A model generated the notes under the pieces. That model was not told where the DNA came from, searched no databases, and saw only the letters and a program-made list of their open reading frames with translations. The position numbers and the translations under genes were made by a program. Below, piece by piece: positions 22,901 to 25,900 of a stretch of 64,000 nucleotides of DNA (its first letter is position 1; every line of letters starts with the position of its first letter). The stretch is from the NCBI RefSeq assembly GCF_006345805.1, contig NC_043009.1:27156001-27220000 (forward strand), written 5' to 3'. This DNA comes from Octopus sinensis (Eukaryota).

Positions 22901-25900
22901 TTTTACAGGTTGGTCGCCAGTATGTTATATTATGGAGTGACTCTTCATTCCGTGGACATGGCTGGAAACCGCTATGTAAACTTCCTGTTGTTGGCATTCG
23001 TGGAATTTCCTTCTCATTTAACTTCTTTCTGCTTGTTTAAACGTTTTGATCACCGGAGGCCCATTTGTTTCTTTCTGATGTTCAGTGGATTAAATTGCAT
23101 CGTGTCAAATTTTGTAACCAAAGGTAATGTACATCGCATATTTTATATTTTATATACATTTGAAACCAGTATCATATCTTATCAAAATAAGCTTAAAATG
23201 CAAGTATATTAAATCGTAAAGACTATTGCAGAGAAAGTTTCGTATCGAATCACAGAATGTATTCACCATAATGTTACTAGATTAAAATATACCACGTGAT
23301 TGCATACATTTCCTGCGCAATCACCAACATACAATCAGTAACGCAGTGATGTTTTATCTTCTGTCAGTTCATTGGTCAACTGTTGTATCTTTATTATTTT
23401 TATTAAGCAATAATTATTCATTTGATTTAATAACATTATTCATATGCTGAATGATTTAAACGTTAAATTTTGGACAATGGGACGAACAAAATGATAACTT
23501 TGTAAAATCATGATCCATCATTTTTTTTCGTCCTAAAAATCTTGAACTGAATATTTCTTTCCGGTAATGCTGCAAAAGATCCTCAAAATATTCGTCTTTA
23601 ATTAAACTAATATTTAATTGATTTGTATTATATAAGGTATGAACATTTGAAACCCTTCGATCTTTATAGCCAACAATTATATTTGTTTTACAAATTTTGG
23701 TTAGGTGCCAAAAGACACATTATAATATTAGATAATGCGACTCAAATGTGGAACTACGGATTCCAGAATGAGTAGTAAACGGTGTATGTTATAAATGATA
23801 GAGATACGATGTGCATCCAGAAGGTCCGAGACATTTTCAGGAGAGGAAGTTATAACTGTCCAAATTTACTGTACTTTTAGTAATCATTATTATTATACAC
23901 CTAATAAGCTAACTTGCCGAATTTTATTCGAAATTAAAGGGGACGGCCATAACAGTAGTTTGAAAAGCCCCTGCTAAAAACTGCTAGTCACAATTTCAGT
24001 CTGTTAATGAACTAATTGACAAAGATGGGCATCAGAATCGTCCCTCACGCAGTCTACAGCCAAGATATTTCTTCCTGTGACTTTTGGTAGTTGCTCAAAC
24101 TGAGGAAGAACCTCAGGAACAGCCGTTTTGAAGACATTGAATGGAAGGTTGTTGCAAGGGTCCTGGACACCTTCCATTTGGATGTCTCCCATTGGGTCTT
24201 CAGAAAGTGGCAGAAGCAATACAAGAGATACATCGAAGTCAGAGGATGTTACTTTGATGGAGATTAGCGGTTTGTACTTTGAGATTAATAAATGTCTCAC
24301 CTAAAAAGTCTCAAAACCTCTGGAATGCACCTTGTATATTGCATTATCTAAGCTTCTATTTTATTGTATTTAAGGTTCATTCTGGTTTCCTCTGATCCTG
24401 GTCGTTCTCGGAAAGTTTGGAATCGCCTCGGCATATGGTTCAATTTATCTCTTATCAGCAGAATTATTTCCAACAGTTGTGAGGTAAATGTTGTTGAAAT
24501 TTTTTTGTGGAAAAATGAGAAAAGATAATGTTTCAGAATTGTTGTGTGTCTTTGCAAACCCACTGTATCTCTTAACCTCTCACGACACTGAAATGTAACG
24601 GCGTGTTTTGTCATCTCACTCTTTTTAGAAACTCAATATGGTGCCGTGTTTTACCTGTTTTACCAGGAATTTAACTTTTCACCATCTCTCTCCTCTTTGT
24701 TTCTCTCTCTCTCCTCTTTGTTTCTCTCTCTCTCCCTTTCTCTCTCTCTCTATCTATCTCTCTATCTATCTATCTATCTATCTATCTATCTATCTATACA
24801 TACATACATACATACATACATACATACATACATACATACATACACATATATATATATATATATATATATATATATATATATATATATATAAATATATATA
24901 TATATATATATATACTACATGTGTGGAAAATTCTGTCTTCGGGTGGGTTTGTTTGTGGGTTTGTTAGTTAAATCCTAGTACTTCATTTTAGCGACTTTTA
25001 TGAAACTTGACACTTGAGTGGAACTCACGTCTGGAAACCTAGTGACAAACGCCCCTGGAAGTGGTCCTTATATCTATTACTTATAAGTGATATATTTTAT
25101 TTTAAAGATTTTAAATAATCCATTCGGGATCCCAAATATAGCCAAGGGAAATGACCCATACATCTTCCTAAATTATTTGGTATAAATCAAATTGAGTATG
25201 CTTATTTCTTAGTACTTGAACTGTGATTTTCGTAATTTATCCACTAAATCGCTTAAACAAGTAAATAGTATTTTCCTAAACAATAGCTCCACTTATTAGT
25301 TAGTGACTTATTCACGAATATACCAACATTAGCGCCTCTGAGGCTACTATTCTCTGAGAATGCACAAAAGCCCTTTTCAGAGTTATTTACTTTGAATTAT
25401 TATTGTCTCATATCTCATTAGCCTGTTATTACGTAACATGCTTCACGAATTTAGTATACATACCTTATTAACATTTCATCCTAAGTTCTATATACTCTGC
25501 GAATGTATTAAGTCCCTTTTCGGGGCTACTTTATTTGAATTCTTACTATCGGGTAACTAATTTCATGTTATTACATAACTGACTTCACAACTTGGGTATT
25601 CATAACTTATTGGGAATTCCTAGGAACAAGATCCTGTGTAAGACAGTTAGATATTCTCCGTAAATGCACAATAACCGTTTTAAGGGCTACATACTTGTAT
25701 TGTTATTATTGGATTAGCGAAATAAGTATGAGAACGGAACCAAGAGATAAACCCCGCTTTCGCAGGGATTACCGGGTACATCAATTAGTATATATATAAA
25801 AGAAAAAATTATATCCTATCAGCATATTCAATCTTTTTTGTTACTTTAAGCCATTATGCATATGCATGTATGTGTATGCAGATGTTTATGTGTGTTTATA

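What the first reader, a model, noticed from the sequence alone, without database searches (positions are those of the whole stretch)
22909..23029. Sharp divergence island over TM7-TM8, the substrate pocket, between otherwise homogenised paralogues
Seen (hand count): the first 121 nt of exon 7 carry about 20 differences and 15 amino-acid changes in 40 codons ([13 protein letters not shown]...VN...HLTSF versus FVAGMIYCGINLN...II...LFAAY). The remaining 94 nt have one silent change. Established: TM7 and TM8 line the SLC22 binding cavity. About 5 silent changes are also present, so this is not simply dN>dS. Inference: selection blocks gene conversion around a specificity-determining segment, i.e. 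neofunctionalisation inside a converting palindrome.
Basis: partly seen in the sequence, partly recalled or inferred. Interest (0 to 1): 0.72.

Follow-up and report, generated by a model that had tools for sequence, protein, structure and literature searches.

The report
One-sided pocket remodelling in octopus transporter
Two neighbouring, inverted copies of an octopus SLC22 transporter gene differ at 15 of 40 residues over helices 7-8, mostly through changes in one copy that likely altered its substrate pocket, a new example of a known way duplicated genes diverge.

Summary
The count is exact: 20 differences in 121 nt, 15 of 40 residues, then 1 silent change in 94 nt. The cluster exceeds chance (scan P<0.00005; 0.003 under stricter nulls) and covers TM7b-loop-TM8. 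It was not imported from any of 29 other paralogues, and both island types occur in three further DNA runs. 'Otherwise homogenised palindrome' overstates things: the arms differ by 5.9% in non-coding DNA, as a mosaic of 2% and 8% tracts, and the island's silent divergence (0.17) is not distinguishable from other unhomogenised exons (0.12). The excess is amino-acid change on copy B (10 versus 4 on A, polarised with the O. bimaculoides co-orthologue). B's changes hit 5 of 25 known SLC22 pocket positions, two of them outside the island. Best reading (0.5): B's pocket was remodelled under positive selection amid patchy conversion. Main rival (0.3): B is relaxed or decaying; it changes residues invariant in the family and its public gene model is broken at this exon. 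A sibling pair shows the same kind of peak on TM1. Known phenomenon, new example.

The parts
22909..23029 (+). Divergence island in copy A: first 40 codons of exon 7 (outer half of TM7, loop, most of TM8)
   Evidence: 20 nt and 15 aa differences to B; helices
46385..46505 (-). Same island in copy B; carries 10 of the 14 polarisable residue changes, among them S361G, Y365C, N381I, H393L (numbering from exon 2)
7873..26548 (+). SLC22 gene copy A, 9 coding exons: 7873-7924, 11234-11607, 11739-11842, 15284-15438, 18697-18865, 21942-22211, 22909-23123, 24375-24483, 26335-26548
   Evidence: AG/GT ends and open frame; identical to public protein P0018 from exon 2 on; spliced contigs in RNA-like runs
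41535..57572 (-). SLC22 gene copy B, 9 coding exons with open frame: 57572-57524, 54778-54405, 54273-54170, 52220-52066, 50013-49845, 47405-47136, 46505-46291, 45038-44930, 41748-41535
   Evidence: public annotation holds it as two pieces, P0040 and P0003
22788..22908 (.). Low-divergence intron tract just upstream of the island (4 of 121 differ)
   Evidence: P=0.024 under the 8.3% state
23051..23400 (.). Low-divergence tract downstream of the island (116-bp identical run, then 6 of 277 non-coding sites differ); probable conversion tract
   Evidence: P=1.6e-5 under the 8.3% state
21942..22705 (.). Unhomogenised block upstream: exon 6 (22 differences, 14 residues) and intron 6 (39 of 438 sites)
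46801..46932 (-). B-specific AG at 46932-46931 in intron 6 (A has AT) and the short terminal exon that the public 416-aa model P0040 splices to; weak acceptor
   Evidence: 3.2 bits against 12.5 for the exon-7 acceptor; same base seen in B-type contigs of X3 and X9
20921..21203 (.). Longest identical non-coding run between the arms (283 bp), best single sign of conversion
1..27087 (+). Left arm of the inverted duplication (begins about 165 bp before the window)
41000..64000 (-). Right arm (runs about 3.2 kb beyond the window)

Best explanation
After an inverted duplication of an octopus SLC22 transporter gene, copy B took most of the amino-acid changes over TM7-TM8 and at further cavity positions, which likely changed what it transports, while patchy gene conversion likely erased differences on either side and left the island looking sharp. 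Shown: two copies with open frames, the island, the 2%/8% mosaic, the one-sided change, the absence of a third donor among the paralogues fetched. Inferred: that the low tracts are conversion, that B's changes were favoured, that selection would purge A-to-B tracts covering them, and that substrate range differs. The island's silent divergence is about the ordinary age of the duplication; it is not shown to be an older, specially protected peak.
For: Polarised with the single O. bimaculoides co-orthologue found (P0026), B carries 31 and A 15 of the 46 assignable changes (P=0.026; 3 of 49 unassignable); in the island B has 10, A 4 and the outgroup branch 1. B's rate is 10 of 40 codons in the island against 19 of 300 in other unhomogenised codons (P=0.0006); B:outgroup is 10:1 against 19:19 (P=0.017), so tract age alone does not explain it. 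B-branch changes hit 5 of 25 literature pocket or gate positions (T204A=OCT1 W217, S361G=OAT1 S350, Y365C=OAT1 Y354/OCT1 Q362, H393L=OAT1 K382, A446T=OCT1 T443), P=0.011, or 0.016 with variability weighting; A 0 of its 15, outgroup 1 of its 32. In rat OAT1, Ser350 and Tyr354 contact tenofovir and Lys382 binds alpha-ketoglutarate (PMC10643130 passages). In OCT1, Q362A blocks metformin but has less effect on MPP+ (PMC10940649 passages). B keeps the Y-E-K motif, W357 and R477. Had B been neutral since duplication, the chance of no stop or frameshift is 0.005-0.0005, and its dN/dS outside the island is about 0.45-0.65. B-type island contigs differ from A by 21-22 letters in runs X2, X3 and X9 (22 expected from the window), from 2 studies. 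Sibling pair L010/L014 has a like peak on TM1 (12 of 40, P=0.004).
Against: Within the island pN equals pS (0.167 against 0.166). dN/dS above 1 on B appears only when the neutral rate is borrowed from elsewhere (2.6, P=0.006 at 8.3%; 1.8, P=0.057 at 12%; P=0.25 with the island's own pS), and the window was chosen after the fact. The 25-position pocket list was hand-picked from paper passages after the differences were known; without S350 P is 0.043. N381 is kept in 29 of 29 other paralogues, and OAT1 Tyr354Phe is non-functional, so N381I and Y365C may be damage. The public annotation breaks B at the exon 6/7 joint using a B-specific acceptor. One outgroup protein only, no outgroup DNA. No substrate is known for either copy.
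Confidence: 0.5

Rival explanations
1. Copy B is under relaxed constraint or in late decay. Its exon 7 drifts at the neutral rate, perhaps because part of its transcripts end in a new intron-6 exon, and the island is a chance unconverted gap between two conversion tracts.
For: pN=pS in the island. B is about twice as fast over the whole protein. Changes at near-invariant sites N381, Y365, S361. New AG in B's intron 6 used by public model P0040, slightly weaker exon-6 donor (6.9 against 8.7 bits). No full-length B-type protein in the clusters returned (weak evidence by the tool's own note). A gap of 142 bp or less has P=0.39.
Against: No stop or frameshift in 9 exons (P 0.005-0.0005 if neutral throughout) and dN/dS below 1 elsewhere on B. 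The new acceptor is weak, 3.2 against 12.5 bits, and no joint to it was listed. Pocket enrichment includes two sites outside exon 7. Island rate is above the borrowed neutral rate.
Confidence: 0.3
2. One reading: the pair is an actively converting palindrome, homogenised except where selection blocks conversion, so the island keeps a much older divergence than its surroundings.
For: Low-divergence tracts on both sides and an island too rich in silent changes to have been converted with them (P=0.002-0.008). Homogenised codons reject an A+outgroup grouping (AU 0.01) while the island and other unhomogenised codons leave A, B and the outgroup unresolved (segments were defined from A-B similarity, so partly circular; 5000 replicates, below the program's advice).
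Against: About 61% of non-coding sites are in the 8% state; 340 of 535 codons are unhomogenised by my partition. Silent divergence of the island is matched by codons 1-40 and 281-320. B-type exon 6 and intron 6 also persist in runs X3 and X9, so flanks too group by paralogue. TM5 and TM11, which also line the cavity, are homogenised.
Confidence: 0.12
3. The island was imported into A or B by conversion from a third paralogue.
For: The cluster holds at least 29 other exon-7 copies and some share local tracts (L003/L004, L013/L020).
Against: The nearest third copy differs from A by 27 and from B by 33 of 121 nt, against 20 for A-B. A+B are sisters in the island tree with 98% bootstrap, B has no exact run of 15 nt or more with any third copy, and 10 rare states in or at the edge of the island are shared by A and B. 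A donor that is lost or unassembled is not excluded.
Confidence: 0.04
4. A and B are two haplotypes or an assembly error placed side by side.
For: Inverted arms in a repeat-rich region.
Against: Both island types are present as separate contigs at similar depth in X2 (63 and 62) and X9 (34 and 38), and at 6 and 12 in X3. A differs by only 0-2 letters between runs while A-B differ by 21-22.
Confidence: 0.02

Closest known systems
Peak of paralogous divergence under gene conversion (Teshima-Innan signature): human red/green opsin exon 5; Drosophila transporter pair CG18281/CG17637 (PMC3924837 and PMC2588116, passages read)
   Same: Local divergence over a functionally important exon between neighbouring duplicates, with lower divergence in flanking introns.
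   Different: There the background is strongly homogenised and the peak stands out in species comparisons. Here most of the arm is unconverted, silent divergence does not peak, and change is one-sided.
Leptodactylus ATP1A1 R/S paralogues (bioRxiv 10.1101/2020.08.04.234435; abstract and first part of main text read)
   Same: Ligand-site substitutions in one membrane-protein paralogue set against non-allelic conversion.
   Different: Shown there across five species with function tested; here one outgroup protein, no function, and no linked silent signal shown.
SLC22 transporters OCT1-3, OCTN2, OAT1, URAT1
   Same: Same fold; Y-E-K form of the YER motif and the TM7 tryptophan are kept in both copies.
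   Different: Both copies have Arg at the OCT1 D474 / OAT1 R466 position, so they look more like anion or zwitterion carriers than their 'organic cation transporter' label says (inference). They belong to an octopus cluster of about 31 close paralogues.

Membership tests
SLC22 (MFS) transporter | 12-TM MFS fold with large loop after TM1; sequence match to solved SLC22 structures | tested here: met
   E 1e-63 to OCT1/OCT2, 7e-56 to OAT1; Pfam Sugar_tr and MFS_1; model pTM 0.79
SLC22 (MFS) transporter | Y-E/D-R/K motif on TM7, TM8, TM10 | tested here: met
   Y364, E389, K442 in A and B; motif defined in PMC10940649
SLC22 (MFS) transporter | Transport of organic ions | not testable with these tools
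   needs an uptake assay
Conversion-selection divergence peak (Teshima-Innan) | Duplicates undergo interlocus conversion | tested here: met
   two-state mosaic 2.0%/8.3%, dispersion 2.46 against a shuffle maximum of 1.55, 283-bp run; indirect, no outgroup DNA
Conversion-selection divergence peak (Teshima-Innan) | Background homogenised over most of the duplicated block | tested here: not met
   only about 39% of non-coding sites in the low state; 195 of 535 codons homogenised
Conversion-selection divergence peak (Teshima-Innan) | Linked silent sites peak around the selected sites | tested here: not met
   pS 0.166 against 0.118-0.123 in other unhomogenised parts and 0.176 and 0.167 in two other windows; only 27 silent sites, so power is low
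Conversion-selection divergence peak (Teshima-Innan) | Island groups by paralogue and flanks by species across species | tested here: inconclusive
   island groups by paralogue in X2, X3, X9, but so do exon 6 and intron 6; A/B/outgroup unresolved in the island
Neofunctionalised duplicate | Asymmetric rate, concentrated at functional sites | tested here: met
   31 against 15 changes; 5 of 25 pocket positions
Neofunctionalised duplicate | dN/dS significantly above 1 on the derived copy | tested here: inconclusive
   P from 0.006 to 0.25 by choice of neutral rate
Neofunctionalised duplicate | Derived copy expressed, with a new function | not testable with these tools
   assembled contigs cannot show absence; no assay
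Palindrome with arm-to-arm conversion (Y-chromosome type; criterion recalled) | Arms more than 99% identical | tested here: not met
   about 94% in aligned non-coding columns, with 64 indels

The most novel reading that the evidence does not exclude
The octopus SLC22 cluster is a specificity-diversifying array: young duplicates remodel one cavity helix at a time (TM7-8 in this pair, TM1 in L010/L014) while conversion keeps the scaffold common, and copy B is a working transporter with a new substrate class that has given up the TM7 gate tyrosine that OAT1 cannot lose.
Probability: 0.2. Interest if true: 0.6.

Novelty: new member of a known kind. Interest (0 to 1): 0.33.

Why it matters
If B works, A and B are a natural mutagenesis pair, 91% identical, that differs at five mapped cavity positions. 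That makes SLC22 specificity rules directly testable, including whether the TM7 gate tyrosine is dispensable. It would also point to an octopus transporter expansion that my searches did not find described. As an evolutionary mechanism it adds an example to a known model and does not change it.

Tried and rejected
Third-paralogue donor: rejected for 29 paralogues. Haplotype or assembly artefact: rejected. Island as a family-wide hypervariable stretch: rejected on average (entropy 0.79 against 0.81 overall, median rank), though 393-396 at the end of TM8 is hypervariable. Mutational bias: the island has 10 transitions and 10 transversions, as in the rest (33:30), and 2 CpG sites. B hard-wiring A-to-I edits of A (S>G and Y>C are A>G changes; idea from recall): no support, since A-type spliced contigs in X6, X13 and X15 differ from B by 21 letters over exon 7, the full A set. 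Expression of B: no RNA holder is on record. In 5 runs guessed to be RNA (X5, X6, X8, X13, X15) the spliced contigs listed over exons 6-8 are A-type and no B-type one is listed, but the runs were found with A's sequence, the tables were cut and contigs drop rare forms, so this is no evidence of silence. Single contigs over intron 7 in X2, X3 and X9 looked like conversion polymorphism but can come from merged bubbles or unread parts; not used. Silent changes were not assigned to branches, so the branch dN/dS values rest on halving the pair divergence. The AU test on the whole protein did not finish. Pfam found nothing for two other ORFs. Literature searches for this cluster or case found nothing relevant. 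Earlier findings of the scan: none. No supplements were read; they could hold SLC22 family counts for cephalopods.

Full report
What is there. The window holds two SLC22-type transporter genes in tail-to-tail orientation, on arms of about 27 kb with a 13.9-kb spacer. Copy A (+, 7873-26548) and copy B (-, 57572-41535) each have nine coding exons with standard splice ends and an open frame. A equals the public protein P0018, labelled Octopus sinensis by its source, from exon 2 on. The genome has 31 close exon-7 copies on contig C13 counting A and B, in two clusters. Residue numbers below count from the first full codon of exon 2; add 18 for P0018.

The observation. The first 121 nt of exon 7 differ at 20 positions and 15 of 40 residues; 4.5 changes are silent; the other 94 nt have one silent change. 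No uniform shuffle of 20000 reaches this. Stricter nulls give P=0.003. The segment is the outer half of TM7, the loop and most of TM8. Both island types are present in three further DNA runs from two studies, so it is not an assembly artefact. The O. vulgaris proteins P0020 and P0021 have the A-type island unchanged.

The background is not homogenised. Non-coding columns differ at 603 of 10265. After masking simple repeats and indel edges, 553 of 9603 differ, and a two-state model fits far better than one: 2.0% over about 39% of sites in tracts near 180 bp, 8.3% in tracts near 290 bp. A 283-bp identical run is reached by 0 of 1000 shuffles. This is the pattern of patchy conversion, inferred without outgroup DNA. 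In the coding sequence exon 5, the end of exon 7 and exons 8-9 are nearly identical (pS 0.03), while codons 1-210 and 268-357 have pS 0.118 and 0.123. The island's pS of 0.166 rests on 27 sites and is matched by codons 1-40 and 281-320. Both flanks are low (4 of 121; 6 of 277) and the island was not converted with them (P=0.002-0.008), but a gap this short is common (P=0.39). So the sharp edges come from conversion tracts, and the silent age of the island is ordinary.

No third donor. Among 29 other paralogues the nearest is 27 nt from A and 33 from B, against 20 between A and B; A and B are sisters at 98% bootstrap, with branch lengths 0.038 and 0.164.

The excess is on B. The one O. bimaculoides co-orthologue found (P0026) assigns 31 changes to B and 15 to A, 3 unassigned; in the island 10, 4 and 1, with one change on the outgroup side. 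B's island rate exceeds its rate in other unhomogenised codons (10 of 40 against 19 of 300) and the B:outgroup ratio shifts from 19:19 to 10:1. Protein trees leave A, B and the outgroup unresolved in unhomogenised parts, so the duplication may be about as old as that species split (partly circular partition, last test unfinished).

Pocket mapping. I listed 25 cavity or gate positions named in passages of PMC10940649, PMC10567722, PMC10643130 and bioRxiv 10.1101/2023.03.15.532610 and mapped them by offsets from HMMER alignments to OCT1 and OCT2. OAT1 numbers were carried over through the conserved Tyr-to-acid spacing and the paper's primer sequences, not through a printed alignment; TM1 positions are less sure. 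B-branch changes hit five (204, 361, 365, 393, 446), A none, the outgroup one (P=0.011-0.016; 0.043 without S350). The list was made after the differences were known. Both copies keep Y364-E389-K442 and W357, and both have Arg at the OCT1 D474 / OAT1 R466 position.

Selection or decay. For function: no disabling change (P=0.005-0.0005 if neutral throughout), dN/dS 0.45-0.65 on B elsewhere and 1.8-2.6 in the island with a borrowed neutral rate. Against: pN equals pS in the island, and P rises to 0.25 with its own pS; N381 is invariant in 29 others; OAT1 Tyr354Phe is dead, although OCT1 has Gln and paralogue L014 has Leu there. The public annotation holds B as a 416-aa piece ending in an intron-6 exon and a 174-aa piece starting in exon 7. 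That exon uses an AG that B has and A lacks, scoring 3.2 bits against 12.5 for the true acceptor on a matrix built from 13 paralogues. I could not see what evidence the annotation rests on. Expression of B is open.

Family context. The island is of median variability among 13 other paralogues; only the end of TM8 is hypervariable. Of five other pairs printed, L010/L014, of the same overall divergence (46 residues, pS 0.082), has its peak on TM1 (12 of 40, P=0.004) and only 3 changes in this island; the other four were not tested. Peaks over cavity helices therefore recur in the cluster.

Comparison with what is known. Divergence peaks under conversion are an established signature (opsin exon 5, a Drosophila transporter pair: passages of PMC3924837 and PMC2588116; frog ATP1A1: abstract and first part of the main text). 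PMC3924837 also warns that conversion patterns can mimic positive selection. This case meets the conversion and asymmetry criteria, fails the homogenised-background and silent-peak criteria, and lacks function. Searches for this octopus cluster or case found nothing relevant; some searches served to find the papers above, and other titles were seen as listings only.

Verdict. Best reading: one-sided pocket remodelling of B under likely positive selection amid patchy conversion (0.5); decay of B (0.3); strict conversion block (0.12). New member of a known kind; interest 0.33.

Noticed in passing
G000:C13 loci L010 and L014, codons 8-47: A second young pair with a divergence peak on TM1 (12 of 40 residues, P=0.004) and many replacements in exon 5 (Nd 14, Sd 2 over codons 211-267).
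   Followed up: partly
window 46932-46801 (-): B-specific acceptor and short terminal exon in intron 6 used by public model P0040; B also has a 22-bp deletion there.
   Followed up: partly
window 22140 and 23050: A-type transcripts carry B's base in some runs: at 22140 in X6 only, at 23050 in X6, X13 and X15; proteins P0020 and P0021 also have B's Asn at 333. Could be short recent conversion tracts or recurrent change.
   Followed up: no
residue 477 of A and B (exon 9, near 26370): Arg at the OCT1 D474 / OAT1 R466 position in A, B and 11 of 13 paralogues; L007 and L014 have Cys. Suggests anion or zwitterion carriers despite the annotation.
   Followed up: no
L003/L004 and L013/L020, exon 7: Distant paralogue pairs that are nearly identical over the first 70 nt of exon 7 and diverge from TM8 onward: possible conversion boundaries.
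   Followed up: no
G000:C13:27229949-27342104: Repeated blocks of broken SLC22 copies; L005 and L006 did not give whole frames in my exon extraction.
   Followed up: no
P0025: An older O. bimaculoides model fuses the A/B co-orthologue directly to the L024-like gene, hinting that B and the copies between are absent there or unassembled.
   Followed up: no
window 27452-27733 and 28791-29072: 282-bp inverted repeat, 99% alike, in the spacer; looks like the ends of a DNA transposon.
   Followed up: no
window 59846-60104 and 62207-62465; ORF 60094-60828 (-): 259-bp direct repeat, 99.6% alike, around an insertion found in the B arm only, with a 245-aa ORF that has no Pfam hit.
   Followed up: partly
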